DNA from: Chloroflexota bacterium
GTDB taxonomy: Bacteria > Chloroflexota > UBA11872
DNA: 64,000 nucleotides
Reading direction: 5' to 3'
Assembly: GCA_026707285.1 (NCBI GenBank)
Contig: JAPOXD010000045.1
Coordinates: 29,384-93,383, forward strand
The translations under genes were made by a program, and so were the position numbers. Positions 326 through 29,104 of the stretch are shown here, one piece after another. Every line of letters begins with the position of its first letter. Positions within the stretch are counted from its first letter, which is position 1. Under the pieces are notes generated by a model that worked only from the letters and a program-made list of their open reading frames with translations, searched no databases and was not told where the DNA came from.

Positions 326-712
326 CTATCCGATGGGCTGATGGAAGTACCAGCAGAGCCCGTCCGGCGCGACGACAAAGAACACCTGGAACCTCTGCCC
401 GTCGCGTTCGTCCACCCGCCAGTTCGCGGTGGCGACGCCGTTGGCCTCCAGCTCCTGCCGGGCGCGGTGGATGTCGCTCACTAGGATGGCCGCACCGTCC
501 ATGCTGGCATCGCCGCCGTTCACGGCGAAGCCGAGCCGCACGCCGTCTCGCTGCATGAACACGGTGGGAACGGGGCTGTCCCGGCGCTCCGCCTCGGCGA
601 GGCCGAAGGATCTGGCGTACCACTCCGAGGCCTGATCGAGGTCCGTGACAGGCAGCGCGAGCACGTCGTCCTGGAAGGGGTAGGCCGCTTCGAACAGGGG
701 GGCGTCACTCAT
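326..712 (-). CDS. VOC (glyoxalase/bleomycin-resistance/dioxygenase) family protein
   Basis: ORF 326..754. Start moved to ATG 712 (MSDAPLFEAAYPF...), which overlaps the stop of the upstream gene by 8 nt (ATGAGTGA). The sequence pattern is typical of small VOC-fold proteins (LGFAVNGGD...AILVSDIHRARQELEANGV...DGQRFQVFFVVAPDGLCWYF). Confidence 0.65.
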   Translation of the reverse strand: MSDAPLFEAAYPFQDDVLALPVTDLDQASEWYARSFGLAEAERRDSPVPTVFMQRDGVRLGFAVNGGDASMDGAAILVSDIHRARQELEANGVATANWRVDERDGQRFQVFFVVAPDGLCWYFHQPIG

Positions 713-1283
713 CGGCGGATTCCCGCGGTTGAGGGGCCACTTGCAATGCCGCAAACGCCCACAGCAGGAAGACCAGGGCCCGCAGCGGATTGAGCGCTTC
801 CCAGAGAATGCCGTGGTTGATGAAGTAGGCGTTGATGAAGACCACGGTTCCGAGCGCGGCGAAGACCGCGGCGCCGATGCCGTCCCAAAAGCCGCCGCGA
901 CTCCAGAGTGCGACCACGGCCACGGTGGTGCATCCCAGGAACAGCGGGTTGATCATCTTCCAGACGTTGCCGAAGTGCGCGGAGGACAACACTTCCGTGT
1001 ACGTGTTGAGAAAGACGATTACGGCCAGAACGGTCAGGAGCAGGCTGCGGGTCCAGGTCACACTGCGAGTGCCGCGCCAGATCCACCAGACGCCGGGGAT
1101 GCCCATGAGCAGCGCGCCAATCTGCCAGAGCCGCCAGGTCCAGTTGTCGGTCGATGCGAGGCCCGGCCGACTGAACATGCCGGTCTGGTCGCCCCAGGCG
1201 AACAGCGCGACGCCGAGAATGGCCGCGGTGACGAGCGCTTCGGCGGCGCCCAGATCACGATGTCGATACAAGCTAGTCATCAC
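705..1283 (-). CDS. hypothetical integral membrane protein (~6 hydrophobic segments)
   Basis: ORF 705..1283, 192 aa, Trp-rich hydrophobic segments. Translationally coupled to the downstream VOC gene. No family recognised. Confidence 0.6.
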   Translation of the reverse strand: MMTSLYRHRDLGAAEALVTAAILGVALFAWGDQTGMFSRPGLASTDNWTWRLWQIGALLMGIPGVWWIWRGTRSVTWTRSLLLTVLAVIVFLNTYTEVLSSAHFGNVWKMINPLFLGCTTVAVVALWSRGGFWDGIGAAVFAALGTVVFINAYFINHGILWEALNPLRALVFLLWAFAALQVAPQPRESADE

Positions 1284-1516: not shown

Positions 1517-2863
1517 ATGATTCGTCCGTTGCTCGAGCGACTGGAGGCGCGGGCGTCGGCGGGCCGACCCGTGACGGTGGCGCTGGCGGGCGCCGGTCGG
1601 TTTGGGACGAGCATCGCGGCGCAGATTGCGCAGATGGACGGCCTGCGGCTCGCGGCGGTGGCCGATCCAAACGCGCAAAACGGCGCGGAGGCCTTGCGCG
1701 CCGCCGGCTGGGCGGACGACCAGTTGCAGCGCTGCGAGAGCCCGGTCGCCGCGCAGGCGGCCGTTGAAGCGGGCAACGCCGCGCTGGCGCCCGACGCTGA
1801 CGCGTTGGCCTCCGCGCCCGTCGAGGTGTTCGTGGACGCGACCGGCATCCCGGAGGTGGCTGCCCACAACGCCTGGGCGGCGTTGCGCGGAGGCCGCCAC
1901 GTCGTCATGGTGACGGTCGAGGCCGATGTGAGCTGCGGCTGGGCCTTGGCGCGGGAGGCGCGGCGGCAGGGCGTGGTCTACACGCTTGCCGCCGGCGACC
2001 AGCCAATCGCCATCATGGAGCTGTTCGACTGGGCCGTCGCGTTGGGTCTGGAAACCGTGGCCGTGGGGCGCGGGACGCGGCTCTACCCGCACGACCGCCA
2101 CGGGGACGCCGACCAGGCCCTGGCGAGGCTCGGCTACGACGCGGAGACGGCGGGCCGTCTCCGACTGAACGCGCAGATGTACAACTCGTTCCGTGACGGC
2201 ACCAAGTCTCAGATCGAGATGTGCGCCGTGTCCAACATGACGGGTCTGCCGCCGGACCGCCGCGGCATGCACGAGCCGTCGGCCGGCCTCAACGAGCTGG
2301 CCGACCTGTTCGCGCCGCGCGACGCCGGCGGTCTGCTGCACCGGACGGGCGTGGTCGATCTGGCGAACGCCGTGGCGCCCGACGGTGCGTCCGAGATTCC
2401 GGAGCACATCGCCACCGGCGTGTGGGCCGTGGTCACGTGCGACGACGAGCGCGTGCGCGAGGACTTGCGCATTCACGGCACGCGCGTCTCGCGCGATGGC
2501 GATCGCACGCTGCTGTTTCGCGAGTACCACCTGTGCGGCGTGGAGACGCCGCTGAGCATTGCCCAGGCGGCGCTGCTGGGCGCGGCGTCGGGCGCGCCGC
2601 GCGAGACGCCGACCTCCGAGGTGCTGGCATATGCCAAGCGCGACCTCCAGCCGGGCGACACGCTGGACGGCTCCGGCGGGCGGCTGGTCTACGGCCTGAT
2701 CGACCGGGCGGAAGCGGTGAGCGGCGGCGTGCTGCCGCTGGGACTCGCCTACGGGGCCGTGGTGCGCGAGCCCGTGGCCGCGGATCAGCCAATTCCTGTG
2801 GATGCGGTACGCGTGGTCCAGGACTCATTCGTGGCACGGCTGCGCCAGGAGGCCGGCGCATAG
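1517..2863 (+). CDS. NAD(P)-binding oxidoreductase with C-terminal SAF domain (homoserine-dehydrogenase-like, COG4091-type)
   Basis: 448-aa ORF. N-terminal Rossmann motif (VALAGAGRFGTSIA). The overall pattern resembles predicted homoserine dehydrogenase / SAF-domain proteins (GDQP..IMEL..W...G, C-terminal LQPGDTLDGSGG). Family assignment is from memory of the family, not a search. Confidence 0.6.
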   Translation: MIRPLLERLEARASAGRPVTVALAGAGRFGTSIAAQIAQMDGLRLAAVADPNAQNGAEALRAAGWADDQLQRCESPVAAQAAVEAGNAALAPDADALASAPVEVFVDATGIPEVAAHNAWAALRGGRHVVMVTVEADVSCGWALAREARRQGVVYTLAAGDQPIAIMELFDWAVALGLETVAVGRGTRLYPHDRHGDADQALARLGYDAETAGRLRLNAQMYNSFRDGTKSQIEMCAVSNMTGLPPDRRGMHEPSAGLNELADLFAPRDAGGLLHRTGVVDLANAVAPDGASEIPEHIATGVWAVVTCDDERVREDLRIHGTRVSRDGDRTLLFREYHLCGVETPLSIAQAALLGAASGAPRETPTSEVLAYAKRDLQPGDTLDGSGGRLVYGLIDRAEAVSGGVLPLGLAYGAVVREPVAADQPIPVDAVRVVQDSFVARLRQEAGA

Positions 2864-5139
2864 ACCGCGATGTCGTCGTTGCGCCAGATTCGAGTCCACT
2901 CCGCGTTCGGCGCCCTCGGCGGCTCGACCGACGCCGGCAGGACCGCCAGATTGGGCGCCTGCTCGCCCGGCGGCTCCACCGTCCACGGCGTGGGCGCCTG
3001 CAGGTGTAAGAGTTGCGTGTCCACGGCGCCGGTCAGGTGCGTGTGGGACAGCACCGAGGCGACGCGTAGTCCGTCCAACCAGCCGAGCTCGGGGGCGAGA
3101 TGCACGATCGTTGACGACGGCGCCGCGCGCAGCGCTTCGTATGTCTCGGGATGAGGCTCGACATCGAGCGTCAGGAACGCCTGCCTGACGCGGTAGAGCG
3201 CTTCGGCGCCATCTCGCGCCAGGAGCTCGAACATCCCGGGATCGGCCAACCAGCGCTGCGCCTGCCGCGGCAGCGCAGCCGCCCAATCGTCCGTGGCGTG
3301 GACGTATTCGATGCCCAGCCTCCGGATGGCGTCGGGCTCCAGGTAGCCGACGGCGTCCAGGTACTCCGACCCAGTGAAGAAGATCAGGTGGGACAGATTT
3401 GAGAACCCTGCGCTACCGGGCCGGCCGGTTGCCAGGGACACCGCCCAATAGGGCCACTTGGGCGTCAGCACGCGGGCGTCCAACGGGATGTGGTCGCGGA
3501 TATAGCTCGCCAGCCGGTCCGACATCGCCGGCATTTGAAATCGCCGCATCGACGCCGCCGGGCGCTTGTATTCCAGGTGCTTCGCTGCCCATCCGGCATT
3601 GGCCAGCTGCACACCGCTTCCAACCGCCGTCGCGAGACTGCGCACCGGCCCCGCAATGGTCGGCCAGCCCACGAGGGAGACGATGAGGAGTGGGGCGGCA
3701 AGTCGCCATCGTGTTGACTCCAGGCTTGTTAGCCGGGCGGCCAGCGCGAGCAGCAGCGCCACGAGCGCCAGATTGCGCGCGTGCCCTGCCAGGCGACTGA
3801 GCACCCACGGCGCCGGCGGATAGCTGAGAATCAGCCAGGCCATCACCAGCAGTGCGGCCCCCGCGGCCAGTGCCACGACAAGACGATCGCGGCGCGCCAG
3901 GACAACGGCGACACCCGCCAAGACCGCGGGACCAACGCCCAGCACGCCGATACTCCCCGAACGCGCGTCGAACGCCCCAAGCGCCTGCCAACGCGTTCCA
4001 TTGAGATCCCACGACAGGCCGAGGCCGTTGGCAGGTCCACCGTCAAGGAGCCCGGTGAGGGCGCCCCCGCCGAGGAGCATTAGCGCTACCGCAACCCCGA
4101 GCCCAGCGCCCAGTCGCAGCACTTCGTCGCCCCCGGGCCGCTCTCGCACGATGTGGACGGCCGCCAGAGCGGCCCACAGGACAACCACGACGGGTGCGAG
4201 CGAAGTCACGAGGATGCCGAGGAAGCCGACGATCGCCCCGAGCGTCAGCACGCCGGCCCACGTCGCGCGCTCAGGTCGGGCGGCGTGCTCCAGCACCACG
4301 AAAGTGAGCGCGTATCCCAGGGTGAAGGCCGGCGTCCAGATGTCGTGCAGCGCTGCCGATTCCAACGGCCACGACGGCCCGAGCGACGGCCAGTAGACAT
4401 CGGCCAGTGCTTCCCAAGAGCCGGCCGCCGGGGCGCCAGTCGGCACTGGCAGCCGCAGAATGCCGCCGCCCAGGTTGGTCCACGTCCAGGCGCCGGCCGT
4501 GAGCAGCAGCGGAGCAACGACCAGCGCCACTCGCCACGACCCGCGCCGCAACAGCCCCGTCGCCACCACCAAGGCGAAGGATGTCCAGGCGTAGGCACCC
4601 AGCAGCTCTTGCACGAACGCCAGGTCGGGCCCGATCGGCGGCGTCAGCAGGCCGACCAGCAGGTCCGCGCCGTGGTGATAGCGCACGAGATACCCGGGAT
4701 TCCAGGGCAATTCGGGAGGAAATCCACCCGCCCGCATCCATGCGGCCAAGCCCAGGTGCAGCGTTGGGTCCGGGCTTTCGAGCAGCTGCCGGCTGGCGAG
4801 CGTCAGCCACAGCAGGGCTAGAACGACAGCGGTGAATCCCGCCGCCACCCACGGGCGCGGCCAGACGAAACGACCCGCGCGCCACGCAAGCACCGCGCCC
4901 AGAACCAGCGTGGCTCCCCAGCCGACGGCAGCGCCGGCGAGCCCCGGCAGGACGTAGAGGGCAAAGTTTGTGATCAATCCCCACAGCGCGAGGCCGACCA
5001 CCAGGCCCTGGGCAAGGGCCGCCCGCGCATCGGCCTGCCGCAGGGCCACGCGGACGACGACATAGCCCACCGCGGCCAGCGCCGCGAGCTCCGCCGCCAG
5101 GAGCAAGAGCCCCGGGATGACGGCCGGATCAACGATCAT
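2785..5139 (-). CDS. array paralog P1: polytopic membrane protein, C-terminally truncated copy (784 aa)
   Basis: ORF 2785..5160. Start moved to ATG 5139 (MIVDPAVIPG...) by alignment with the other copies. It has the full membrane core and the first part of the soluble region. Homology to the other copies stops at ...IWRNDDIAVYAP (about 2854-2862). The last 22 codons are unrelated read-through that overlaps the 3' end of the convergent gene 1517..2863. The terminal ~150-aa domain of the other copies is missing. Confidence 0.75.
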   Translation of the reverse strand: MIVDPAVIPGLLLLAAELAALAAVGYVVVRVALRQADARAALAQGLVVGLALWGLITNFALYVLPGLAGAAVGWGATLVLGAVLAWRAGRFVWPRPWVAAGFTAVVLALLWLTLASRQLLESPDPTLHLGLAAWMRAGGFPPELPWNPGYLVRYHHGADLLVGLLTPPIGPDLAFVQELLGAYAWTSFALVVATGLLRRGSWRVALVVAPLLLTAGAWTWTNLGGGILRLPVPTGAPAAGSWEALADVYWPSLGPSWPLESAALHDIWTPAFTLGYALTFVVLEHAARPERATWAGVLTLGAIVGFLGILVTSLAPVVVVLWAALAAVHIVRERPGGDEVLRLGAGLGVAVALMLLGGGALTGLLDGGPANGLGLSWDLNGTRWQALGAFDARSGSIGVLGVGPAVLAGVAVVLARRDRLVVALAAGAALLVMAWLILSYPPAPWVLSRLAGHARNLALVALLLALAARLTSLESTRWRLAAPLLIVSLVGWPTIAGPVRSLATAVGSGVQLANAGWAAKHLEYKRPAASMRRFQMPAMSDRLASYIRDHIPLDARVLTPKWPYWAVSLATGRPGSAGFSNLSHLIFFTGSEYLDAVGYLEPDAIRRLGIEYVHATDDWAAALPRQAQRWLADPGMFELLARDGAEALYRVRQAFLTLDVEPHPETYEALRAAPSSTIVHLAPELGWLDGLRVASVLSHTHLTGAVDTQLLHLQAPTPWTVEPPGEQAPNLAVLPASVEPPRAPNAEWTRIWRNDDIAVYAPASWRSRATNESWTTRTASTGIG

Positions 5140-5273
5140 TCGCCCACTCTCACGCGACACGCCGGCGCCTGCGGCAGGTCACATGGTGCTCCGCGATTGC
5201 GCCGGCGGCAGGTGGAACCGCCGCATGTGCGCCTTGCTAGTCCGATTCGACGCAGACACGGCGTGACGGAACG

Positions 5274-8114
5274 CTACGGCAGCGATTCGCCGCGGACGTT
5301 TTCGTGCACTGAGTAGGTGACCTGACCGTCCTCGGCGATTTCGATCCGCATCACCGGGATGAAGGCAGCCTCCCGCCATTGGTCGGGCCGCCACTCGTGC
5401 TGCAGGCGGAGCGCCAAGACCCAAGTCCCCGCACCCAAGCCGCCCTCCGATGTGTCGAGCGGTACCAAGGCCCCGCGGTCGTTCCGCACGGCCAGGGTGG
5501 CCGCCGCCGCATCGAATTCGTACGAGTGCGTGCTGGTGACCGAATTCGATGAAAGCAGCCCGGCAAACCACTTCGCGGTCGCCGGTCCGCGGCCGCGGTC
5601 GAGAATGGCGGTTGGAATCTCCCACGGCCAAGTGTCCACCCGCACCACCACCCAATCCTGCCCGGTCCATCGCTCCGGCGCTTGGTTGTCGAACGTGGCG
5701 GTAAAGGCGATGCGTCTGTTGCCAAGGTGGGCGTCGACAATCGCGACGGCTACCGGCGGCGTTTCGAGGGCCACGCGGGGCGGCGTTATCGGTGCAACAG
5801 CCCCGCCGGGCGCGTAGACGGCGACCGCCTCGTTGCGCCAGACGGGCTGCCGGGCGCTGGGGGGAAACGCCCACGTCCACAGCTCGACGGACGCCGGGAG
5901 GACGATGAGATCCGGCACGCCCTCGCCAGGCGGCGCCACCGTCCAGGGCACGGGCGTACGCGCGTGCAGCCGCAGCGTGTTGATGGCGCCCACGAGTTGG
6001 GCGTGAGGCAGGACCGACGCGACGCGAAGCCGGTCCAGCCAGTTGGCCTGCGGAGCCAGGTAGACCGTTGTCGATGGCGGCACCGACCGCAGCGCTTCAA
6101 ACGACTCGGGATGCGGCGCCACGTCGAGCTCGAGGAATGCCGGCTGAATGCGATAGAACGCCTCGTCGCCGTCGCGGTAGAGAAGCTCGAACAGGCTCGG
6201 ATCCGCCAGCCACTCGCGGGCCCGAGCCGGCAGCAAATCTACCCAGGAATCGGTGGCGTGAACGTATTCGAGGCCCAAGCGCCGGATGGCGGCCGGCTCC
6301 AGGTAGTGGCGGGCGTCCCAATACTCCGGGCCCGGGTGGTAGATCAGGTAGATCACATCGGCGAAGCCCGCGTTGTTCGGGCGGCCGGTGCCGAGGAACA
6401 CGTTCCAATAGGGCCACTCGGTGGCGAGCACGCGTGCATCCACAGCCGTGTGGTCCCGGATGTAGTCGGCCACGGGCCCCGTCAAGGCCCGCAACTGAAA
6501 CCGGCGCATGGGAACCGTCTCGCCTTGGTCGATCAGTTCGTGTTGCACCCACCGGGCATTGGCCAGTTGCACGCCATTGCCGATTGCCAGGCCCAGACTG
6601 CGCGCGGGCGTCACGACCGTGGGCCAGGTGATCAGCGCGACCAGCACCGCAGCGGCGGCGTAGCGCCAGCGTCCGACTGGGAGGCTGGAAAGGCGCGAAC
6701 TCATCGCGAGCACCAGCGCCACGAGCGAAAGGTTGCGGGCATGTCCCGCGATGCGGTAGGTATCCCAAGGCGCTGGCTGATAGGTGAGCGCGAGCGAAAG
6801 CAGCACCAGCAATCCGGCGCACGCCGCCAGCGTCACCACCAGCCGGTCGCGCCGCGCCAACACCACCGCCGCGCCACCAAGCGCCACCGGCCCCAAGCCC
6901 AGCCGGCCCAGGCCGCCGGGACGCACGTCGAACGAGCCCAGCGCCTGCCAGTGCACCGACTCAATGCCCTGCGCCAGCGTCAGGCCCAACTGTGGCGATC
7001 CGTCCAAGACTCCCGTGAAGGCGCCGCCGCCGCCGAGAACCAGCAGTCCACCCAGGATCGGACCGGCGCCCAGTCGGAGTGCCGCCGGCGCCGGCGGCTC
7101 GGTCCGGCGAGCTCGCAGGAAGTGCATCGCGGCCAGTCCGGCCCAAGCGATCAGGACCACCGGAACGAGGGAGGTCGAGAGGACACCCAGGAAGCCGACC
7201 AATCCCGCGAGCGTCAGCGTCTCTCCCCAGGACCAGCGTTCATGACGCGCCGCGAAGTTCAGCACCACGAAAGCCAGGGCGTATCCTAGCGGAAATCCGG
7301 GCTTCCAAATGTCGGCCAACACGTGTGAGAACGTCGCGCTCGCGGACAGCTCGACGTGCGGCCAATAGACGTCGGTCAGCGAGGCCCGAAGGCCGGCCTC
7401 AGGCAGTCCAGCTGGCAGGGGCAGCTGCAAAACCCCTGCGCCGACGCTGCTGAAGGTCCAGAGTCCGCTGCTCAGCATGAGCGGGGCCGTGACGATCACG
7501 CCGAAGAGCGATGCCCGCTGCAGCAGCGCGGTCGTCACGATCAGGACCAGGGTTGTCCAGGCATAGGCGCCCAAGAGCTCCGAGACGAACGCGAGGTCCG
7601 GTCCGAACGGCGGCGCCAGCAAACCCACGAGGAGATCGGTGCCGTGGTGATAGCGGATGAGCGTGCCCGGGTGCCACGGCAACTCCGGCGGGAATCCACC
7701 CGCGCGGATCGTGGCGGCTAGCCCCAAATGGATCGGCGGATCGGGAATCAGCATCAGCTGGCGGCTGGCGAGCGCCGCCCACATGAGCGCCAGGACCGCG
7801 ACGGCGAAGCCCGCGGCCACCCGCGGCCGCGGACGTAGTATGGCGCGAGGCGCCCGCCACGCCAGGGCGGCACCCAGGGTGAGCGTGACGCTCCAGCCGA
7901 CGGCCGACCCCGCGAGGCCGGGAACCACGTACATGACGAAGTTGGTCATCAGGCCCCAGAGGGCGAGCCCGACCACCAGACCTTGGGCGAGAGCAACGCG
8001 CTCATCGGGTTGCCGCAGCACCACTCGCACGACGACGTAGCCCACCGCCGCTAGGGCGATCAGCTCCGCCGCCAGCAGCAGAAGGCCCGGAATCACGGTC
8101 GGATCGACGGTCAT
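5274..8114 (-). CDS. array paralog P2: polytopic membrane protein with large C-terminal soluble domain (946 aa, A-type C-terminus)
   Basis: ORF 5274..8129. Start moved to ATG 8114 (MTVDPTVIPG...). ~13-14 hydrophobic segments in the first ~560 aa. Conserved motifs FPPE, RYHHG, GLLAPPFGPDLAF, GHARN, TGRPNNAGF, YLEPAAIRRLGLEYVHATD. Shares a 675-bp identical tract with P9. Confidence 0.85.
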   Translation of the reverse strand: MTVDPTVIPGLLLLAAELIALAAVGYVVVRVVLRQPDERVALAQGLVVGLALWGLMTNFVMYVVPGLAGSAVGWSVTLTLGAALAWRAPRAILRPRPRVAAGFAVAVLALMWAALASRQLMLIPDPPIHLGLAATIRAGGFPPELPWHPGTLIRYHHGTDLLVGLLAPPFGPDLAFVSELLGAYAWTTLVLIVTTALLQRASLFGVIVTAPLMLSSGLWTFSSVGAGVLQLPLPAGLPEAGLRASLTDVYWPHVELSASATFSHVLADIWKPGFPLGYALAFVVLNFAARHERWSWGETLTLAGLVGFLGVLSTSLVPVVLIAWAGLAAMHFLRARRTEPPAPAALRLGAGPILGGLLVLGGGGAFTGVLDGSPQLGLTLAQGIESVHWQALGSFDVRPGGLGRLGLGPVALGGAAVVLARRDRLVVTLAACAGLLVLLSLALTYQPAPWDTYRIAGHARNLSLVALVLAMSSRLSSLPVGRWRYAAAAVLVALITWPTVVTPARSLGLAIGNGVQLANARWVQHELIDQGETVPMRRFQLRALTGPVADYIRDHTAVDARVLATEWPYWNVFLGTGRPNNAGFADVIYLIYHPGPEYWDARHYLEPAAIRRLGLEYVHATDSWVDLLPARAREWLADPSLFELLYRDGDEAFYRIQPAFLELDVAPHPESFEALRSVPPSTTVYLAPQANWLDRLRVASVLPHAQLVGAINTLRLHARTPVPWTVAPPGEGVPDLIVLPASVELWTWAFPPSARQPVWRNEAVAVYAPGGAVAPITPPRVALETPPVAVAIVDAHLGNRRIAFTATFDNQAPERWTGQDWVVVRVDTWPWEIPTAILDRGRGPATAKWFAGLLSSNSVTSTHSYEFDAAAATLAVRNDRGALVPLDTSEGGLGAGTWVLALRLQHEWRPDQWREAAFIPVMRIEIAEDGQVTYSVHENVRGESLP

Positions 8115-8291
8115 GCCCGCGCGCTCCACGACACGTCGCGGTGTGGTCCTTCGGTCGCGCCGACTAGACCGCGCGTCGCGAGGCGTGGCATCGGTTTAGC
8201 GCGGGTGAGGCTGGGAGTTTCACCCATCGCGTGCACGCGGAAAGCCCTACGGACGTCCGTCGCTGGCATGTCGACATCTTGCCCGACCTGG

Positions 8292-11153: not shown

Positions 11154-11331
11154 GTCCGCGGCCTCCACCTCGCGTCGACCGGGGACACTTGTGCCGCCGT
11201 AGCCGAGCAAGGCTCGGCCAACGGAAACGCACCATCAGCCACGGTGGCGGCCCTGATAGCCTCCCAAGCTCGCCCGCCGCCGATTGGAGTGTCGATCGTC
11301 CGAGGCATGGCGCTCATCTTGCCCGACTTGT

Positions 11332-14205: not shown

Positions 14206-14240
14206 GAGCCAGGTCGCAATCGCAACCGCTGCCCCTTCAC

Positions 14241-17096: not shown

Positions 17097-17219
17097 TTCC
17101 CGCCCTCACCCAATGTGTTCACCCCCGCCGTCCAAGCCACTCTCCCTGGGCGTTTGCGCGGTCAACTCCCACATCATCACATCGGGGCACCCGCGCCCCG
17201 AGCGGGACGTCCGGTCGGC

Positions 17220-20069: not shown

Positions 20070-20236
20070 TTAGGCAGGCGCCGAACGACCGCCGTCGCTC
20101 CTCGTCACGGGCTCAATCAATTGGGCCGAGCGTTCGATCCGTCACATCCTGTCAGGTGCTGGCAGGGCTGCCGCGCACATCGTCACGCGTGAGCATCGCG
20201 CCCGCGGGCACAACAGAAACGCGGCGACGCCGAAGC

Positions 20237-23083: not shown

Positions 23084-23285
23084 TGAGGCAAGCTCCGCAT
23101 GAACGCCAGAGGTTTGCGCCACAGGCTCATGTCAAATCGGGAGTATATCCATGCAGTCACTTCGCCCCGTGCATCCGCGCGGGTGACCGTCGCGTCCTGC
23201 ATGGCGCCAACGCAGCCGCTGGGCGCGTCCTCACACGCGAGCATCACGCCCGTTGCGCTCAATTTGATCACGGCGACGCCAGAGT

Positions 23286-26141
23286 CTACGGGAGCGGGCT
23301 CCCGCCCAGCACATCGTCAAACACCTTGAACGTCACGGCGCCACTCTCGGCAATCCTGATCCGCACCACCGGTATCACCGCGGTGTCGCGCCAATAGTTC
23401 GGTTGGTACTCCTCCCGCAGACGGAATGCCAGGGTGTAACCGCCCGGGCCAAGGTCCGCCGCCGACATCGGCAGCGGCGCAAACGCCCCGGCGTCGTTGC
23501 GCACCGACAGCTCGGCCGTCCGCACGTCAAACCGGTAGGTGTGGGTGGAGGTCGCGCTCCCCGCCGAGAGCAGACCCCCAAACCACTTCGCAATTGTCGG
23601 CTCGTCGCCCCGGCGGAACACCTCGGTCAGAATCGCCCACGGTGATCGGTCACCTTTGAGGACCACCCAATCTTGGCCCGTCCAACCCTCCGAGGCGCGC
23701 TCCTCGAACGATGCGACGAACTCGATGCGGTCGTCCGCCACCGCCACGTCCGTCACTTCCACGAGCAGCGGCAGCGGATCGCCGGACGGCGGAGTATCTG
23801 GCGGTGGAGTGTCCATCAACCGCGGCGTCCCGCCATTTGGCGCATACACCCCGACGCCCTCACGCCACCAGATCGGCGTCCGCGCCGAAAACTCGAACAT
23901 CCAGGCAACAGCGTTGGTTGGCAACACGACGAAGTCCGGTGTCTCATCGGTCAGTGCGTCGACGTGCCATTTCGCGGGCGGTACCAGGTGGAGCTGCTGG
24001 GGGTGCAGCTTGCCGACGAGCCGGGCGTGCGACAGCGCCGACGCAACGCGGATCATCTGAACATAGGTGTGCGGGACCACCAGATACACCGTTGCCGACG
24101 GCGGCACGGCCCGCCTGAGGGCCTCGAATGACGCGGGAGCGGGCGAGAAATCGAGACTCAAGAACGCCGGGCGCACCCGGTACAGCCGCTCGGAGCCGTC
24201 GCGGACGAGCACATCGAACAAGGCCGAATCGTCCAGCCAGGCCCGCGCACGTTGCGGCAGGGTCGCTGCCCAGGCATCCGTGGCGTGGACATACTCGATG
24301 CCGAGCTGCCGGAAAGCCGCCGGCTCGAGATAGGTCACGGCGTCCAGATACTCGGGACCGATTTGGTAATTCAGGTGAGTCAGCCCGGCAAACCCGGCGT
24401 TGTTGGGACGACCGGTGGCGAAGAACACGTTCCAGTAGCGCCCTTCGGTGCCCAGCACGCGCGCATCCAGGTGGAGGTGGTCCCGGATGTAGTTCACCAC
24501 GTCGGCGGACACGCGTGGCATCTGAAATCGCCGCATGGGTACCGCCTCGCTCCGCGGTGGCAGCTCTTCATTTATCCATCTGGCGTTGGCCAACTGCACG
24601 CCATTCCCGACTGCCAGGCCGAGACTGCGGGCTGGCGCCACGACCGTGGGCCACACGACCAGAATCGCTACAAGGATGGCGGCAACACGCTGGCGTGTGG
24701 ACCGGAGATCGGCCAGACGGCTCGTGAGCGCCAGCAGCAGCGCCGCCAGCGCCAGATTGCGCGCATGCCCGGCGAAACGATTTACATCCCAGGGCGCGGG
24801 CGGATAGGTCAGCGCCATCCAAGCGAGCGCCAGTAGGCCGGCGCTCGCCGCCAACGCCAGCACCAGCCGGTCGCGTCGCGCCAGGACGACGGCCACGCCG
24901 GCGACGGCCAATGGCCCGACGCCCAGCAGACCCAGGCCGCCGGGCCGCGCGGCAAATGTGCCGAGCGCCTGCCAGTGCTCCTCGTGGAAACTTGGCGCCA
25001 GCTCGAAACCGGACGACGGCGCGCCACCGAGGAGCCTCGCAAACGCGCCGCCGCCAGCGAGGACCAGCACCGCCGCCAGCGCCAGACCGGCGCCAGCTCG
25101 GAGCGCGTCGCTCACCGCCGAGCTAGATCGCCTGGCTCGCATGACCTGCCAGCCGGACAAGGCCGCCCACACGACCCCAGCCACTGGAACGATCGTAGGT
25201 GACACCAGGCTCAGGAAGCCGACCAGTCCCGCCAGCGTGATGGCGGCAGTCCATGCCGCGCGTTCCGAGCGAGCGGCGCGCTCCAACACGACAAACGTCA
25301 GCGCGTAGCCCAGCGGGAAGTGTGGCTTCCAGATATCCGGCAAGAGGTCGGTTACCGGCGGCGTCACGTTCGACGACAGCGCAACCGTCGGCCAGTAGAT
25401 GTCGCCGACTGCCGCCCGCAGTCCCGCCTCCGGCAGCCCGGACGGAACGGGCAGCAGCAACACGCCGGGCGAAGCGATAGTGAAGGTCCAAAGACCGCTG
25501 CTGAGCAGGAGCGGGGCGGCGACGAGCACGCTGACGAGCGACGCCCGCTGCAGCAACGCCGTCGTCACGATTAGCACGAGACTTGTCCAGCAGTAGGCGC
25601 CAAGAATCTCCGTCACAAATGCCGGATCAGGCCCAACCGGGGGCGTCAACAGTCCGACCAGGTGGGAAACACCGTGGTGGTAGGGCGATGGCGTCCCTGG
25701 ACCCCAGAACAGCTCTGGCGGATAGGCGCCCTCGCGGAGCGAGACCGCCACCCCCAATTGCGTCTGCGGATCCGGGATCCAATGGAGTTGGCGGCTGGCA
25801 AGCCCGGCCCATAGGAGCGCCACCACAGCCACCGCAAATCCCGCCGCCACGCGCGGCCGCGGCCCAACGAGTTTCGGCGCGCACCAGGCCAGCACCGCGC
25901 CCAGGGTCAGCACCACGCCCCAACCGACGGCCGCCCCCGCAAGGCCGGGAACGGCGTACATCACGAAGTTGGTGATCAGTCCCCAGAGCGCCGGGCCGAC
26001 CACCAAGCCCTGCGCCAAGGCCATGCGCTCGTCGTCCTGACGCAGGGCCACCCGCACGATGACGTAACCCACGGCGGCCAGCGCGGCCAGCTCCGCCGCC
26101 AGCAGCAGCAGGCCCGGAACTACTGCTGGGTCAAGGGTCAT
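23286..26141 (-). CDS. array paralog P8 (951 aa, B-type C-terminus)
   Basis: ORF 23286..26168. Start moved to ATG 26141 (MTLDPAVVPG...). B-type C-terminal region (AVPPSATVYLVVPH..., PIWW, IEFVASFEE...). Confidence 0.85.
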   Translation of the reverse strand: MTLDPAVVPGLLLLAAELAALAAVGYVIVRVALRQDDERMALAQGLVVGPALWGLITNFVMYAVPGLAGAAVGWGVVLTLGAVLAWCAPKLVGPRPRVAAGFAVAVVALLWAGLASRQLHWIPDPQTQLGVAVSLREGAYPPELFWGPGTPSPYHHGVSHLVGLLTPPVGPDPAFVTEILGAYCWTSLVLIVTTALLQRASLVSVLVAAPLLLSSGLWTFTIASPGVLLLPVPSGLPEAGLRAAVGDIYWPTVALSSNVTPPVTDLLPDIWKPHFPLGYALTFVVLERAARSERAAWTAAITLAGLVGFLSLVSPTIVPVAGVVWAALSGWQVMRARRSSSAVSDALRAGAGLALAAVLVLAGGGAFARLLGGAPSSGFELAPSFHEEHWQALGTFAARPGGLGLLGVGPLAVAGVAVVLARRDRLVLALAASAGLLALAWMALTYPPAPWDVNRFAGHARNLALAALLLALTSRLADLRSTRQRVAAILVAILVVWPTVVAPARSLGLAVGNGVQLANARWINEELPPRSEAVPMRRFQMPRVSADVVNYIRDHLHLDARVLGTEGRYWNVFFATGRPNNAGFAGLTHLNYQIGPEYLDAVTYLEPAAFRQLGIEYVHATDAWAATLPQRARAWLDDSALFDVLVRDGSERLYRVRPAFLSLDFSPAPASFEALRRAVPPSATVYLVVPHTYVQMIRVASALSHARLVGKLHPQQLHLVPPAKWHVDALTDETPDFVVLPTNAVAWMFEFSARTPIWWREGVGVYAPNGGTPRLMDTPPPDTPPSGDPLPLLVEVTDVAVADDRIEFVASFEERASEGWTGQDWVVLKGDRSPWAILTEVFRRGDEPTIAKWFGGLLSAGSATSTHTYRFDVRTAELSVRNDAGAFAPLPMSAADLGPGGYTLAFRLREEYQPNYWRDTAVIPVVRIRIAESGAVTFKVFDDVLGGSPLP

Positions 26142-26263
26142 CGGCCCAGCCTCGGCGCCACGGTCCAACCATTTCGAGCCTTAAGCTCTTCCCGGCGCGG
26201 TCGTTGTCACGCGGGAGCGTGGCGCCAATCTTGCCCGAGTCACACACGGACAGTTTTGCAGGC

Positions 26264-29104
26264 CTACGGGAGTACCCGCCCGAGCACGCCGCCAAAGACC
26301 GCATACGAGACTTCGGCAGCCTCGGAGACCTTAAATTGAATCACTGGAATGAGCGCTGCCTGGCGCCAGGAGTTTGGCTGCCATTCGTGTCGCAGACGCA
26401 GCGCCAACGTGTAGCTGCCCGGTGCAAGCTCCGCCGCCGACGTTGCCAGCGGCACGAATGCGCCAGCGTCGTTGCGCACGGACAATTCGGGCGCCCGCGC
26501 GTCGAATCGGTACGTGTGCGAGGACGTGGCCGACCCCGACGAGATCAGCCCGCCAAACCACCGCGCCACCTCCGGTCCGCGGCGGTCGTCAAGAAACCGG
26601 GCGGGAATCGCCCAGGGTTCATCATTGACCGGAATCACGACCCAGTCCTGCCCGGTCCAACGTTCCGGCGCGTGCTCGGTAAACGTCGCCATGAATTTCA
26701 GGCGCCCGTGTTCAAGCCGTGCATCCGTCACTCGAACCGTCACCGGCGGTGCCTCGAGTGCTGGCCCGGGCGGCGTGATCGACGCGAATCCCCCGTTGGG
26801 CGCATAGATGGCGACCTGACCGTTCTGCCACACGGGCTGCCGACTGGAGGCCGGAAACATCCGCGTCCACTGCCCGATTGACGGCGGCAGGACGACCAAG
26901 TCCGGCGCCTGCTCGCCCGGCGCATCCACCGTCCACGGCGCGGGTGTTCGCAAGTGCAGCCGGAGCTCGTCGACGGTGCCCAGCAGCCGGGCGTGACTCA
27001 GCACTGATGCGACGCGAAGTCTCTCCATCGGATCCGCTCGCGATGACAGATGCACGACGGTCGACGGCGGCACCGCACGCAGCGCCTCGTAGGACTGTGG
27101 ATGCGGCACGACGTCAAGCTGGAGGAAGGCGGATCGGATGCGGTACACGGTTTCGGCGCCATCGCGCACCAGCAGCTCGAACAACCGGGGGTCCGCCAGC
27201 CACTCCTGGGCCCGTGCGGGAAGCCCGGCTGCCCAGGCATCCGTCGCGTGGACATATTCGAGGCCCAACCGGCGGATGGCCGCCGGCTCAAGATAGTGGA
27301 CGGCGTCCAGGTATTCCGGTCCAATTTGGTAGAACTGATGGACGAGGTTGGCGAAGCCCGCGTTGTTCGGGCGGCCGGTGCCGAGGAATACGTTCCAATA
27401 TTGCCATTCGGTGGCGAGCACGCGCGCATCCACAGCGGTGTGGTCCCGGAGATAGTCGGCCACGGGTCCCGTCACGGCCCGCAGCTGAAACCGGCGCATG
27501 GGCACGTCCACGCCCTCGTCTCGCAGCTCCGTTTGCACCCACCGGGCATTGGCCAGCTGAAGGCCATTGCCGATTGCCAGGCCCAGACTGCGCGCGGGCG
27601 TCACGACCGTGGGCCAGGTGATCAGCGCGACCAGCACCGCAGCGGCGGCGTAGCGCCAGCGTCCGACTGGGAGGCTGGAAAGGCGCGAACTCATCGCGAG
27701 CACCAGCGCCACGAGCGAAAGGTTGCGGGCATGTCCCGCGATGCGGTAGGTATCCCAAGGCGCTGGCTGATAGGTGAGCGCGAGCGAAAGCAGCACCAGC
27801 AATCCGGCGCACGCCGCCAGCGTCACCACCAGCCGGTCGCGCCGCGCCAACACCACCGCCGCGCCACCAAGCGCCACCGGCCCCAAGCCCAGCCGGCCCA
27901 GGCCGCCGGGACGCACGTCGAACGAGCCCAGCGCCTGCCAGTGCACCGACTCAATGCCCTGCGCCAGCGTCAGGCCCAACTGTGGCGATCCGTCCAAGAC
28001 TCCCGTGAAGGCGCCGCCGCCGCCGAGAACCAGCAGTCCACCCAGGATCGGACCGGCGCCCAGTCGGAGTGCCGCCGGCGCCGGCGGCTCGGTCCGGCGA
28101 GCTCGCAGGAAGTGCATCGCGGCCAGTCCGGCCCAAGCGATCAGGACCACCGGAACGAGGGAGGTCGAGAGGACACCCAGGAAGCCGACCAATCCCGCGA
28201 GCGTCAGCGTCTCTCCCCAGGACCAGCGTTCATGACGTTCCGCGAAGCTCAGCACCACGAAAGCCAGGGCGTGTCCCAGCGGGAATCCGGGTTTCCAAAT
28301 GTCTGGCAGCACTTGTGAAAGCGTCGCGCCCGCGGACACATCGACGTGCGGCCAATAGACGTCGGTCAATGAGGCCCGAAGGCCGGCCTCAGGCAGTCCA
28401 GCTGGCAGGGGCAGCAGTAAAACCTCTCCGACGACGCTGCTGAAGGTCCAGAGTCCGCTGCTCAGCATGAGCGGGGCCGTGACGAGCACGCTGAATACCG
28501 ACGCCCGCTGGAGCAGCGCGGTGGCTACCACCAAAACATAGGCCGTCCAGGCGTAGGCCCCGAGCAGCTCGAAGGCGAACGGCAAGTCCGGGCGGCCAGT
28601 CGGCGGCGCCAGCAAACCCACGAGGAGAGGGGTGCCGTGGTGATAGCGGATGAGCGTGCCCGCGTTCCACGGTAACTCCGGGGGAAAGCCGCCGGCACGA
28701 ATGAAGGCCGCCAGCCCAAGATTGATGGACGTGTCGGGAAACGAAATCAACTGACGGCTAGCCAGCGCGACCCCGAAGAGGGCCAGGACCGCGACGACGA
28801 AACCGGCCGCCACTCGCGGTCGCGGGCCAATGGGATAAGGCGCGCGCCACGTCAGCACCGCGCCCAGGGCCAGCATGACGACCCAGCCGACGATGGCCCC
28901 TGCCAGACCTGGCACCAGGTGCAGCACGAAGTTGACCACCAGGCCCCAGAGCGCGAGCCCCACCACCAGTCCTTGGGCCAAGGCCATCCGCTCATCCGCT
29001 TGGCGCAGCACCACCCGCGCCACGACATAGCCGACCGCGGCGAGCGCCACGAACTCGGCGAAAATCAAGAGCAGGCCCGGAAGAGCCGCCGGATCAACAG
29101 TCAC
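26264..29104 (-). CDS. array paralog P9 (946 aa, mosaic copy; first gene of the array in transcription order)
   Basis: ORF 26264..29104, GTG start ((M)TVDPAALPG...) with GGAGGA 8-9 nt upstream. The central segment is identical to P2. The C-terminal domain begins A-type (P4-like) and ends B-type (P5/P6-like). Confidence 0.85.
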   Translation of the reverse strand: MTVDPAALPGLLLIFAEFVALAAVGYVVARVVLRQADERMALAQGLVVGLALWGLVVNFVLHLVPGLAGAIVGWVVMLALGAVLTWRAPYPIGPRPRVAAGFVVAVLALFGVALASRQLISFPDTSINLGLAAFIRAGGFPPELPWNAGTLIRYHHGTPLLVGLLAPPTGRPDLPFAFELLGAYAWTAYVLVVATALLQRASVFSVLVTAPLMLSSGLWTFSSVVGEVLLLPLPAGLPEAGLRASLTDVYWPHVDVSAGATLSQVLPDIWKPGFPLGHALAFVVLSFAERHERWSWGETLTLAGLVGFLGVLSTSLVPVVLIAWAGLAAMHFLRARRTEPPAPAALRLGAGPILGGLLVLGGGGAFTGVLDGSPQLGLTLAQGIESVHWQALGSFDVRPGGLGRLGLGPVALGGAAVVLARRDRLVVTLAACAGLLVLLSLALTYQPAPWDTYRIAGHARNLSLVALVLAMSSRLSSLPVGRWRYAAAAVLVALITWPTVVTPARSLGLAIGNGLQLANARWVQTELRDEGVDVPMRRFQLRAVTGPVADYLRDHTAVDARVLATEWQYWNVFLGTGRPNNAGFANLVHQFYQIGPEYLDAVHYLEPAAIRRLGLEYVHATDAWAAGLPARAQEWLADPRLFELLVRDGAETVYRIRSAFLQLDVVPHPQSYEALRAVPPSTVVHLSSRADPMERLRVASVLSHARLLGTVDELRLHLRTPAPWTVDAPGEQAPDLVVLPPSIGQWTRMFPASSRQPVWQNGQVAIYAPNGGFASITPPGPALEAPPVTVRVTDARLEHGRLKFMATFTEHAPERWTGQDWVVIPVNDEPWAIPARFLDDRRGPEVARWFGGLISSGSATSSHTYRFDARAPELSVRNDAGAFVPLATSAAELAPGSYTLALRLRHEWQPNSWRQAALIPVIQFKVSEAAEVSYAVFGGVLGRVLP

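What the first reader, a model, noticed from the sequence alone, without database searches (positions are those of the whole stretch)
2785..29104. Nine tandem same-strand paralogs of an unrecognised ~950-aa polytopic membrane protein occupy 26.3 kb with nothing interleaved
Seen directly: nine consecutive minus-strand ORFs. After harmonising starts, all begin M-(T/R/I)-(V/L)-D-P using ATG, GTG or TTG, and eight are 946-957 aa while the terminal copy is 784 aa. Start-to-start spacing is 2891-3058 bp and spacers are 35-202 nt. Most copies have their own purine-rich SD-like stretch. No other gene interrupts the run. Each protein has ~13-14 hydrophobic segments in the first ~560 aa and then a ~390-aa soluble region. 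Arg/Lys-rich short loops (WRAPRPIGPRPR, RARRTEPP, ARRDR) alternate with long loops. By the positive-inside rule this places the long loops and the C-terminal region outside the cell. The first ~60 residues and several loop motifs are nearly invariant at protein level. They are encoded with many synonymous differences, for example LLLL as CTTCTGCTGCTG in P2 and TTGCTGCTCCTG in P3. The copies are therefore old and under purifying selection, not a fresh amplification. I cannot place the family. A many-TM core plus a large outward-facing C-terminal domain is the general layout of GT-C lipid-linked glycosyltransferases (PglB/AglB, ArnT, Emb, AftD). That is only an architectural analogy. The flanking genes are sugar-type oxidoreductases. 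A ninefold array of such large membrane proteins with diversified outer domains suggests two possibilities: a diversified set of envelope-modifying enzymes, or receptors with different specificities.
Basis: partly seen in the sequence, partly recalled or inferred. Interest (0 to 1): 0.92.

Follow-up and report, generated by a model that had tools for sequence, protein, structure and literature searches.

The report
Tandem array of novel GT-C glycosyltransferase-like genes
Nine neighbouring genes in an uncultured Chloroflexota genome encode old, still-constrained copies of an unannotated ~950-residue membrane protein whose predicted fold is that of lipid-linked-sugar (GT-C) glycosyltransferases, so the block is most likely a toolkit for decorating the cell envelope.

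Summary
Nine consecutive minus-strand genes span 2785-29104. Eight encode 946-957 aa and the terminal one 784 aa. Spacers are 35-202 nt and nothing is interleaved. Pairwise identity is 44-77%, dS is about 1, and dN/dS is 0.28-0.45.

No Pfam, NCBIfam or PDB sequence search places the family. An AlphaFold2 model (pLDDT 89) gives only GT-C glycosyltransferases as significant PDB matches: AftA, DPY19 and an oligosaccharyltransferase-complex chain. The soluble alpha/beta domain modelled alone again recalls DPY19, STT3, AglB and ArnT outer domains, but only marginally (best E 0.0099).

An Asp sits at the tip of a juxtamembrane-like helix, where GT-C_A enzymes carry their catalytic Asp. It is conserved in 112 of 129 homologs. 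The P4 orthogroup has His there.

Every named homolog comes from a Chloroflexota MAG, apart from one distant relative labelled Actinobacteria. The same genomic slot holds 3 to 12 or more copies in related genomes. In some relatives AftB-like GT-C genes sit inside or beside the array.

Best reading: a new GT-C family expanded into a birth-and-death array of outer-face glycosyltransferases. This is a new variant of a known kind. It is interesting but not categorically new.

The parts
26264..29104 (-). P1, 946 aa, GTG start, most upstream copy. The TM domain (res 1-512) is 27569-29104, the alpha/beta domain (res 546-780) is 26765-27469, and the beta-sandwich (res 781-940) is 26285-26764.
   Evidence: (AF2 pLDDT 89.3, pTM 0.86)
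23286..26141 (-). P2, 951 aa, ATG start
20237..23083 (-). P3, 948 aa, GTG start. It is the second most divergent copy (44-53% identity to the others). The candidate catalytic position holds Glu (codon 22712-22714).
17220..20069 (-). P4, 949 aa, GTG start. The candidate catalytic Asp is replaced by His (codon 19698-19700), as in 15 of 129 homologs; 13 of the 129 have Glu two residues later.
14241..17096 (-). P5, 951 aa, ATG start. It is the most divergent copy (44-54% identity to the others).
11332..14205 (-). P6, 957 aa, ATG start. Only 35 nt separate it from the P5 stop.
8292..11153 (-). P7, 953 aa, TTG start
5274..8114 (-). P8, 946 aa, ATG start. This is the most widespread orthogroup (29 of 129 homologs at >=70% identity).
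2785..5139 (-). P9, 784 aa. This short form lacks the C-terminal beta-sandwich. Homology to the other copies ends near 2854, and its last codons overlap the 3' end of the convergent DRL gene. The short form is conserved at this end of the array in relatives.
27563..28237 (-). 675-bp tract in P1 (res 290-514) identical to 6573-7247 in P8. It is a recent gene-conversion tract, and P1 carries P8-type sequence here.
6573..7247 (-). Partner (probable donor) of the conversion tract, in P8
28733..28735 (-). Codon of D124 in P1, the candidate catalytic Asp at the N-cap of the first juxtamembrane-like helix (res 125-136). Equivalent codons: 25770-72, 22712-14 (Glu), 19698-700 (His), 16725-27, 13834-36, 10782-84, 7740-42 and 4768-70.
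29149..30405 (-). GFO/IDH/MocA oxidoreductase, same strand, 44 nt upstream of P1. It forms the conserved upstream border of the array slot.
1517..2863 (+). DRL-type oxidoreductase with SAF domain, convergent with the array. It forms the conserved downstream border of the array slot.

Best explanation
The nine genes encode paralogs of a previously unannotated family with the GT-C (class A) glycosyltransferase fold.

Each protein has 14 membrane helices. Three are extra N-terminal helices; the remaining 11 form a helix core like that of AftA and AftB. On the outer face sits a cap made of an alpha/beta domain and a beta-sandwich.

Inferred mechanism. Each enzyme takes a sugar from a polyprenyl-phosphate-linked donor in the outer leaflet and transfers it to a cell-envelope acceptor, either a polysaccharide or a glycoprotein. 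The Asp at the tip of the first juxtamembrane helix (D124) would act as catalytic base or nucleophile. A ring of invariant polar residues at the outer membrane boundary (R117, Q118, H155, E179, R454, H458, R460) would hold the donor phosphate and sugar. The outer loops and the cap would hold the acceptor.

The paralogs are old, individually conserved across species and ordered. They most likely perform different steps, linkages or acceptor choices, as EmbA/B/C and the Aft enzymes do in mycobacteria. The array grows and shrinks by duplication, loss and gene conversion.

Shown: the array, its age and constraint, the topology, the fold similarity, the conserved Asp, the copy-number variation, and the association with AftB-like genes. 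Inferred: glycosyltransferase activity, the donor type, and distinct specificities.
For: Fold:
- The AF2 model of P1 has pLDDT 89.3 and pTM 0.86.
- In Foldseek against 350,542 PDB chains, the three hits with E<=0.001 are AftA 8if8_C (4.1e-5) and DPY19 7zlh and 7zli (4.3e-5, 7.8e-5). The fourth is 9n9j_I, a chain of a secretory-translocon entry that I take to be the STT3 subunit (1.7e-3). All four have probability 1.00.
- The alpha/beta domain modelled alone (pLDDT 90) has GT-C outer domains among its best hits: DPY19 E 0.0099, several OST/STT3 chains, the AglB C-terminal domain 3vu0_C with TMt 0.45, and ArnT.

Active-site layout:
- The long outer loop 118-173 contains two short helices, 125-136 and 157-165. 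GT-C_A enzymes have a JM1/JM2 pair in the same kind of loop and a catalytic Asp at the tip of JM1 (PMC12041299).
- D124 is Asp in 112 of 129 homologs, Glu in 2 and His in 15.
- R117, Q118, H155, E179, R454 and D600 are invariant down to 26% identity.

Topology: inner loops hold 26-32% K+R and outer loops 3-5%.

Constraint: dN/dS between orthologs is 0.21-0.40 for all nine types, including the short P9.

Context:
- AftB-like GT-C genes lie in tandem inside or beside the arrays in three relatives. They match NF041481 at E 1.5e-8 and PDB AftB 9dlf at E 0.0027, with the DD motif aligned.
- NDP-sugar epimerase/dehydratase and GT2 genes recur among neighbours.

Sequence link: a weak but repeated link to the membrane family TIGR03662 Chlor_Arch_YYY, in 15 of 40 members with best E 4.9e-6.
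Against: - No sequence method places the family in any GT family.
- Global TM-scores to GT-C structures are modest (TMq 0.24-0.30, TMt 0.30-0.44). I could not inspect superpositions, so the equivalence of D124 with the catalytic Asp rests on position in the secondary structure, not on a structural alignment.
- The juxtamembrane loop follows the fourth helix, not the first. This requires three extra N-terminal helices and an outside N-terminus, which is unusual for GT-C.
- The P4 orthogroup lacks the Asp.
- Hits of the soluble domain are all above E 0.001.
- hhalign finds no relation to the neighbouring AftB-like family (probability 0.3%).
- No polyprenyl-phosphate sugar synthase or flippase gene was identified next to the array in the window.
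- No activity, donor or acceptor is known for any member.
Confidence: 0.6

Rival explanations
1. The proteins are GT-C-fold protein glycosyltransferases, like the oligosaccharyltransferase STT3/AglB/PglB, the protein mannosyltransferases or DPY19. They would modify secreted or S-layer proteins rather than polysaccharides, each paralog recognising a different protein or sequon class.
For: DPY19 and OST-complex chains are among the top full-length hits. The best matches of the isolated alpha/beta domain are DPY19, STT3 chains and AglB C-terminal globular domains.
Against: - The WWDYG motif of STT3/AglB/PglB is absent from all nine copies.
- There is no Pfam STT3, PMT or DPY19 hit even at E<=10.
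- The top full-length hit is the polysaccharide enzyme AftA.
- The genes found inside related arrays are AftB-like polysaccharide transferases.
- The domain hits are marginal (E>=0.0099).
Confidence: 0.15
2. The GT-C scaffold has been co-opted for a non-catalytic role: variable surface receptors, sensors or adhesins, or decoys against phage. In that case the array is a repertoire of binding specificities rather than of enzymes.
For: - dN/dS is higher than in flanking genes, 0.21-0.40 against 0.09-0.18.
- Copy number varies from 3 to 12 or more between species.
- Gene conversion occurs between copies.
- One orthogroup has lost the candidate catalytic Asp.
- The terminal beta-sandwich resembles generic Ig-like binding modules.
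Against: - The most conserved residues are polar or charged residues at the outer membrane boundary (D124, E179, R117, Q118, H155, R454, R460). This is typical of an active site, not of a binding surface.
- There is no hypervariable region. Within-orthogroup conservation is 0.83-0.91 in every region, and there is no concentration of specificity-type sites in the outer domains.
- No dN/dS value approaches 1.
Confidence: 0.1
3. The proteins are polysaccharide polymerases or ligases that use polyprenyl-diphosphate-linked oligosaccharides (Wzy, WaaL or SEDS-like), not single-sugar GT-C transferases.
For: They are large polytopic membrane proteins with big outer loops, and several conserved Arg and His residues at the outer face could bind a diphosphate. 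Such enzymes are also poorly covered by profile libraries (PMC10920833, listed).
Against: No WaaL, Wzy, RodA or FtsW structure appears among the 50 PDB hits listed. The significant ones are all GT-C. No Wzy_C or O-antigen ligase Pfam hit was found at E<=10.
Confidence: 0.05
4. The array is an assembly artefact, that is, fewer real copies inflated by mis-assembly of a metagenome bin.
For: A 675-bp stretch is identical between two copies 21 kb apart. In a short-read assembly this could be a chimeric join.
Against: - All copies differ by 23-56% at protein level, with dS of 0.44-1.57.
- Each window copy except P9 has an ortholog elsewhere in the protein collection that is more similar to it (82-100%) than any window paralog is. 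P9's orthologs, at 71-83%, appear at the array ends of related loci.
- Arrays of 8, 9, 10 or more, and 12 copies in the same syntenic slot occur in independent assemblies, one of them on a 3.19-Mb contig.
Confidence: 0.02

Closest known systems
GT-C class A glycosyltransferases with a C-terminal periplasmic domain: mycobacterial AftA (PDB 8if8) and AftB (9dlf); also DPY19 (7zlh) and STT3/AglB
   Same: - Polytopic membrane domain followed by an outward-facing soluble domain.
- An 11-helix core after the extra helices.
- An outer loop with two short helices and an Asp at the tip of the first.
- These structures are the only significant Foldseek matches.
   Different: - No detectable sequence relation to any of them.
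- Three additional, highly conserved N-terminal helices and an outside N-terminus.
- No WWDYG or DD motif.
- A different cap (alpha/beta domain plus beta-sandwich).
- Modest global TM-scores.
aftA-embC-embA-embB cluster of Mycobacterium tuberculosis (from my own knowledge, not tested here)
   Same: Tandem same-strand paralogous GT-C enzymes of about 1,000 aa with periplasmic C-terminal domains. Each builds a different part of a cell-wall polysaccharide from a polyprenyl-phosphate sugar. This is the best precedent for how a GT-C array works.
   Different: - Three paralogs plus one unrelated GT-C there, against 9 here and 3 to 12 or more in relatives.
- A different sequence family.
- Chloroflexota rather than Corynebacteriales.
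- Copy number varies between species, and gene conversion is seen here.
TIGR03662 Chlor_Arch_YYY domain proteins (NCBIfam; function unknown; Chloroflexi and Archaea)
   Same: This is the only recurrent sequence-level signal. Fifteen of 40 family members match it weakly (best E 4.9e-6) over the N-terminal helices and the first long outer loop, P1 residues 17-200 against profile positions 11-205.
   Different: The score is 20.7 bits against a curated cut-off of 300 bits, so the proteins are not members. No Pfam family matched any member significantly. The function of Chlor_Arch_YYY is itself unknown, and I found no paper on it.
Multi-component extracytoplasmic glycosylation systems: polyprenyl-phosphate sugar synthase, flippase and GT-C (PMC11127046, PMC8035078, listed)
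   Same: This is the likely mode of action: a GT-C enzyme decorating an envelope glycan on the outer face using a lipid-phosphate sugar.
   Different: The synthase and flippase partners were not found beside the array in the window. Here the GT-C component alone is multiplied ninefold.

Membership tests
GT-C fold glycosyltransferases, class A (superfamily level) | Membrane domain with the GT-C fold (conserved module of seven TM helices) | tested here: met
   Foldseek of the AF2 model (pLDDT 89): the three hits at E<=0.001 are AftA and two DPY19 entries. The fourth hit (E 1.7e-3) is a chain of an OST-bearing translocon entry. All four have probability 1.00. TM-scores are modest (0.24-0.44), and the superposition itself could not be inspected.
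GT-C fold glycosyltransferases, class A (superfamily level) | First extracytoplasmic loop of the module carries two juxtamembrane helices, JM1 and JM2 (PMC12041299) | tested here: inconclusive
   Outer loop 118-173 holds two short helices, 125-136 and 157-165. It lies outside by the positive-inside rule. However, it follows the fourth helix of the protein, and equivalence to JM1/JM2 was not checked by superposition.
GT-C fold glycosyltransferases, class A (superfamily level) | Conserved catalytic Asp at the tip of JM1 (PMC12041299) | tested here: met
   D124 is the N-cap of helix 125-136. It is Asp in 112 of 129 homologs, Glu in 2 and His in 15. In the window it is met in 7 copies, is Glu in P3, and is not met in P4 (His).
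GT-C fold glycosyltransferases, class A (superfamily level) | Transfer from a lipid-phosphate-linked sugar donor on the outer face | not testable with these tools
   This needs biochemistry. Only indirect support exists: invariant Arg, His and Glu residues at the outer membrane boundary.
Oligosaccharyltransferase STT3/AglB/PglB (GT66) | WWDYG motif in the C-terminal domain and a match to the STT3 profile | tested here: not met
   No WWD in any of the nine copies. No Pfam STT3 hit at E<=10. There is only marginal fold similarity of the soluble domain.
AftB-type arabinofuranosyltransferase (NF041481) | DD motif after TM1 and sequence similarity to AftB | tested here: not met
   hhalign of the family profile against the AftB-like neighbours gives probability 0.3%. 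No NF041481 hit was found for family members. The neighbouring 752-783-aa genes do meet this feature weakly.
TIGR03662 Chlor_Arch_YYY | Score above the curated cut-off (300.25 bits) | tested here: not met
   The score is 20.7 bits for P1. Fifteen of 40 members give sub-threshold hits, best E 4.9e-6.
Any Pfam-A family (including PMT, PMT_2, STT3, Emb and Aft families, YfhO, DUF2298) | Match above the gathering score | tested here: not met
   No family reaches its gathering score in 40 diverse members or in 11 further distant relatives. The best is DUF6798 at E 3.9e-4 in 8 of 40.

The most novel reading that the evidence does not exclude
The array is a combinatorial surface-glycan cassette. A new GT-C family carries a unique, highly conserved three-helix N-terminal module with a membrane-embedded Glu, which may dock or flip the lipid-linked donor. 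The family's copy number (3 to 12 or more) and mosaic copies, produced by duplication, loss and gene conversion, would give each symbiont lineage its own envelope glycan code. By MAG naming these Chloroflexota appear to live in sponges, so such a code could govern host recognition or phage evasion.
Probability: 0.15. Interest if true: 0.8.

Novelty: new variant of a known kind. Interest (0 to 1): 0.55.

Why it matters
GT-C enzymes build or decorate the outermost glycans of cells. They are drug targets in mycobacteria and determine antigenic type in many bacteria.

Here a family invisible to Pfam, NCBIfam and PDB sequence searches takes up about 26 kb in genomes that, where related chromosomes are complete, are only 3-3.8 Mb. 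It recurs as arrays at several loci in nearly every genome that has it. If the proteins are active transferases, they define a new glycosyltransferase family. They would also point to an unusually elaborate, lineage-specific envelope polysaccharide or glycoprotein coat in uncultured Chloroflexota.

Copy-number change in a fixed genomic slot, a conserved short terminal form and an orthogroup with Asp replaced by His offer natural experiments on how GT-C specificity evolves.

Tried and rejected
- Sequence placement failed throughout: Pfam and NCBIfam hmmscan of single copies, of 40 diverse members and of distant relatives; phmmer and hmmsearch against PDB sequences; a second word-indexed search from the most distant member P0209, which found only 8 unannotated proteins.
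- Profile-profile comparison with the AftB-like neighbour family was negative.
- The viral structure library gave nothing.
- Promoter and terminator scans found no more sites than shuffled sequence. Transcription units therefore remain unknown.
- Rfam and tRNA scans found no RNA element in the array.
- Literature searches for DUF2298/Chlor_Arch_YYY, DUF6798, GT-C in sponge Chloroflexi, and the MAG names or accession prefixes found nothing relevant. The sponge origin of the MAGs therefore rests only on my reading of the bin names.
- I rejected the idea that P9 is a fresh pseudogene. No remnant of the missing domain lies downstream, and the short form is conserved and constrained in relatives.
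- My dN/dS control for the MlrC gene was invalid because of a frame offset and is not used.
- I could not obtain model coordinates, so no residue-level superposition was possible.

Full report
**Naming.** I call the copies P1 to P9 in the direction of transcription on the minus strand. P1 is 26264-29104 and P9 is 2785-5139.

**1.

- The ORF list shows nine consecutive minus-strand ORFs between 2785 and 29104.
- With starts harmonised to the shared M/V/L-x-x-D-P, the lengths are 946, 951, 948, 949, 951, 957, 953 and 946 aa, and 784 aa for the last copy.
- Start codons are GTG, ATG, GTG, GTG, ATG, ATG, TTG, ATG and ATG. Start-to-start spacing is 2891-3058 bp.
- Spacers are 35-202 nt.
- Seven of nine starts have a GGAG/GAGG-like stretch 8-13 nt upstream.
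- Pairwise protein identity is 44-77%. Pairwise dS is 0.44-1.57 and dN/dS 0.28-0.45.
- In the nearly invariant first 60 codons, third positions agree at only 54% of identical residues.
- The window has about 68% G+C. The long plus-strand ORFs inside the array are the usual shadow ORFs of such DNA.
- Rfam and tRNA scans find nothing in the array. Promoter and terminator scans find no more than in shuffled sequence.

**2. Topology**

- The AlphaFold2 model of P1 was built on 129 homologs and has pLDDT 89.3 and pTM 0.86. It shows 14 membrane helices up to residue 512, then an alpha/beta domain (about 546-780) and a beta-sandwich (about 781-940).
- I assigned sides by the positive-inside rule. The seven short loops on one side hold 26-32% Lys+Arg in all nine copies. 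The loops on the other side hold 3-5%.
- This puts the N-terminus (four residues, including the near-invariant D4) outside.

**3. Where the family occurs**

- A profile search of 5.8 billion proteins found 761 relatives. The best 120 are all about 945-aa proteins without Pfam domains. Where a source names them, they are 'hypothetical protein' of Chloroflexi/Chloroflexota MAGs.
- A full HMMER pass over 1.84 billion cluster representatives found only 495 clusters, most of them fragments. The family is therefore narrow.
- One distant relative is labelled Actinobacteria.
- In one genome per species of GTDB, all 65 loci recovered are Chloroflexota MAGs. Several are on complete chromosomes of 3.0-3.8 Mb.
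- Many bin names (RHO, COS, Langseth) look like sponge-microbiome bins to me. I could not verify this.

**4. The array is old, ordered and dynamic**

- Each window copy except P9 has an ortholog elsewhere that is more similar to it (82-100%) than any window paralog is. P9's orthologs, at 71-83%, appear at the array ends of related loci.
- The genomic slot MlrC peptidase, GSDH, GFO/IDH/MocA, [array], DRL oxidoreductase (convergent), small Acyl_transf_3-like gene is conserved in relatives.
- The slot holds a varying number of copies:

| Locus or assembly | Copies in the slot |
|---|---|
| L020 | 3 |
| L008, L009 | 4 |
| JAJECS | 8 |
| CBDEVI (3.19-Mb contig) | 9 |
| contig_44 of ERZ25069376 | at least 10 |
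| JAJDUU | 12 |

- The DRL-proximal end is the most stable. A P8-type copy followed by a short copy of 784-830 aa without the beta-sandwich occurs in six relatives. dN/dS for the short form is 0.24-0.30. No remnant of the missing domain lies downstream in the window. P9 is therefore a conserved short form, not a recent wreck.
- All nine types are under purifying selection between species (dN/dS 0.21-0.40). They are less constrained than the flanking genes (0.09-0.18).
- Gene conversion occurs. P1 27563-28237 is identical over 675 bp to P8 6573-7247. In this tract P1 is 83% identical to the P8 ortholog of another genome but only 59% identical to its own ortholog.
- Most genomes with the family have five or more copies at up to three loci. 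These are lower bounds, taken from the fetched loci.

**5. What the proteins are**

Sequence methods fail.
- There is no Pfam family in single copies, in 40 diverse members or in distant relatives. There is no PDB sequence match.
- The only recurrent signals are sub-threshold. TIGR03662 Chlor_Arch_YYY appears in 15 of 40 members (best E 4.9e-6, 20.7 bits for P1 against a cut-off of 300). The 61-residue DUF6798 appears in 8 of 40.

Structure is informative.
- Foldseek of the full model against the PDB gives three hits at E<=0.001: arabinosyltransferase AftA (8if8_C, 4.1e-5) and the C-mannosyltransferase DPY19 (7zlh and 7zli, 4.3e-5 and 7.8e-5).
- The fourth hit is chain I of the secretory-translocon entry 9n9j (1.7e-3). 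I take this chain to be the STT3 subunit. All four hits have probability 1.00.
- The alpha/beta domain modelled alone (pLDDT 90) has among its best matches the outer domains of DPY19 (E 0.0099), several OST/STT3 chains, AglB (3vu0_C, TMt 0.45) and ArnT. Unrelated methyltransferases also appear at low probability.
- These domain hits are individually marginal. They are nevertheless an independent pointer to the same enzyme class.

Active-site layout.
- GT-C_A enzymes are defined by a seven-helix module, two juxtamembrane helices in its first outer loop, and a catalytic Asp at the tip of the first (PMC12041299).
- In P1 the outer loop 118-173 carries two short helices, 125-136 and 157-165.
- D124 caps the first of them. 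It is Asp in 112 of 129 homologs and Glu in 2. It is His in 15; that set includes window P4, and 13 of the 129 have Glu two residues later.
- R117, Q118, H155, E179 and R454 are invariant down to 26% identity. By the topology above they lie at the outer membrane boundary, where GT-C active sites sit. H458 and R460 are invariant or nearly so and lie in the same place.
- On this reading the helix 96-117 is the 'TM1' of the GT-C module. It is followed by ten more helices, as in the 11-helix enzyme AftB and, from my own knowledge, AftA.
- Helices 5-87 are an extra three-helix N-terminal module. This module is the most conserved part between paralogs: 52% of its columns have the same consensus residue in all orthogroups. 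It contains a membrane-embedded Glu (E17).

**6. Context**

- In the window nothing is interleaved. In relatives, other genes are.
- Three tandem genes of 752-756 aa sit inside the orthologous array of contig_44. Pairs of such genes sit beside or inside arrays of another genome (L015/L016), and a fragment is found in L013.
- These genes match terminal beta-(1->2)-arabinofuranosyltransferase AftB. The NF041481 match has E 1.5e-8. The PDB 9dlf match has E 0.0027, with the DD motif and the following RxxRNLLxGxGxVFNxGExVE stretch aligned.
- They are not detectably related to the family itself. Their presence places the arrays among GT-C enzymes that build polysaccharide from polyprenyl-phosphate pentofuranose.
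- A 513-aa membrane ORF without any family hit is interleaved in four other genomes.
- Across 143 neighbour clusters the most recurrent Pfam families are GFO/IDH/MocA (5), NAD-dependent epimerase/dehydratase (3), GDP-mannose dehydratase-like (2), GT2 (2) and GSDH (2). This is compatible with sugar metabolism. It is not tested against a background.
- A second conserved slot in more distant genomes is NUDIX, [array], DUF3604/CehA-like hydrolase, acetyl-CoA synthetase, epimerase.

**7. Most likely mechanism (confidence 0.6)**

- Each copy is an outer-face glycosyltransferase. It uses a polyprenyl-phosphate sugar, with D124 as base or nucleophile. The invariant outer-boundary residues bind the donor, and the loops and cap bind an envelope acceptor.
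- The paralogs are old and each is conserved between species. They most likely carry out different steps or acceptor choices, as the Emb and Aft enzymes do in mycobacteria (my own knowledge).
- The array evolves by duplication, loss and conversion.
- Shown: the array, its age and constraint, topology, fold class, the conserved Asp, copy-number variation and the AftB-like association.
- Inferred: activity, donor, acceptor and division of labour.
- Rivals are protein glycosylation (0.15), non-catalytic receptor use of the scaffold (0.10), polymerase or ligase (0.05) and an assembly artefact (0.02).

**8. Comparison and novelty**

- The proteins work like GT-C_A enzymes and pass the fold test and the catalytic-Asp test.
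- They fail every family-level membership test tried: Pfam GT-C families, STT3 motifs, AftB and the TIGR03662 cut-off.
- They are best described as a new family within a known fold class. They have an unusual extra N-terminal module and an unusual scale of tandem expansion.
- I found no paper describing them.
- This is a new variant of a known kind, of moderate interest (0.55). It is not the categorically new system that the first score implied.

Noticed in passing
window 27563-28237 and 6573-7247: There is a 675-bp exact identity between P1 and P8, which lie 21 kb apart. In this tract P1 carries P8-type sequence over residues 290-514. This is recent gene conversion, or less likely an assembly chimera.
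   Followed up: yes
window 19698-19700 (P4) and 15 of 129 homologs: A set of 15 homologs that includes window P4 has His instead of the candidate catalytic Asp; 13 of the 129 have Glu two residues later. The change is conserved, which suggests a different chemistry or a non-catalytic member.
   Followed up: partly
L067 2896-9971 (= L001 99-4016); L015 2066-6769; L016 12901-17604: Tandem sets of two or three 752-783-aa AftB-like GT-C genes (DDAFISFRY motif) lie inside or beside the arrays in related genomes. They are absent from the window.
   Followed up: yes
L008 8260-9801, L009 5298-6830, L005 5211-6752, L007 170-1684: A 513-aa multi-pass membrane ORF with no Pfam or NCBIfam hit is interleaved in the arrays of four related genomes. 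It has no counterpart in the window.
   Followed up: partly
window residues 1-95 of every copy (e.g. 28820-29104 in P1): The extra three-helix N-terminal module is the most conserved part between paralogs. It contains near-invariant D4, membrane-embedded E17, and R30, R34, Q35, D37 and Q44. Its role is unknown.
   Followed up: partly
window 705-1283 (-): A 192-aa ORF shows a weak Acyl_transf_3 match covering only profile positions 91-256. It is conserved at 72-94% identity in eight relatives just beyond the DRL gene. It may be a truncated or unusual membrane acyltransferase.
   Followed up: partly
window 20219-20248 (-) and spacers P2->P3, P3->P4; spacers P1->P2, P6->P7, P7->P8: Spacers keep short shared motifs just after the stop codons: GGCGTCGCCG...GATGCTC(A/G)CG(C/T)GTGA in one set and TCGGGCAAGAT in the other. 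One forms an 11-pair hairpin followed by Ts at the P3 stop. They may be terminators or remnants of the duplication unit.
   Followed up: no
window 35947-37977 (-): A 676-aa ORF between the MlrC peptidase and GroEL genes has no Pfam or NCBIfam hit. I did not establish whether it is a real gene.
   Followed up: no
window 42151-43909 (+): A Prok-JAB/MPN domain protein is followed directly by a PP-loop ATPase-like protein (weak NAD_synthase and Asn_synthase matches). The pairing is reminiscent of prokaryotic ubiquitin-like or sulfur-carrier systems.
   Followed up: no
window 46000-56000: G+C falls to 61-65% from 67-72% in most of the rest of the window. The region holds a PhyH dioxygenase and an SBP_bac_5 solute-binding protein, followed by several plus-strand ORFs that I did not annotate.
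   Followed up: no
L025, L027, L028, L030, L037: In a more distant lineage, a single family member or a small array lies a few kb upstream of a GroEL paralog that is 54-55% identical to the window GroEL at 38140-39813.
   Followed up: no
window 4001-30000: AT skew on the plus strand is strongly positive (0.12-0.29) across most of the array. The coding strand is therefore T-rich over A, as expected for genes dominated by hydrophobic codons. This is a simple compositional flag for such arrays.
   Followed up: no
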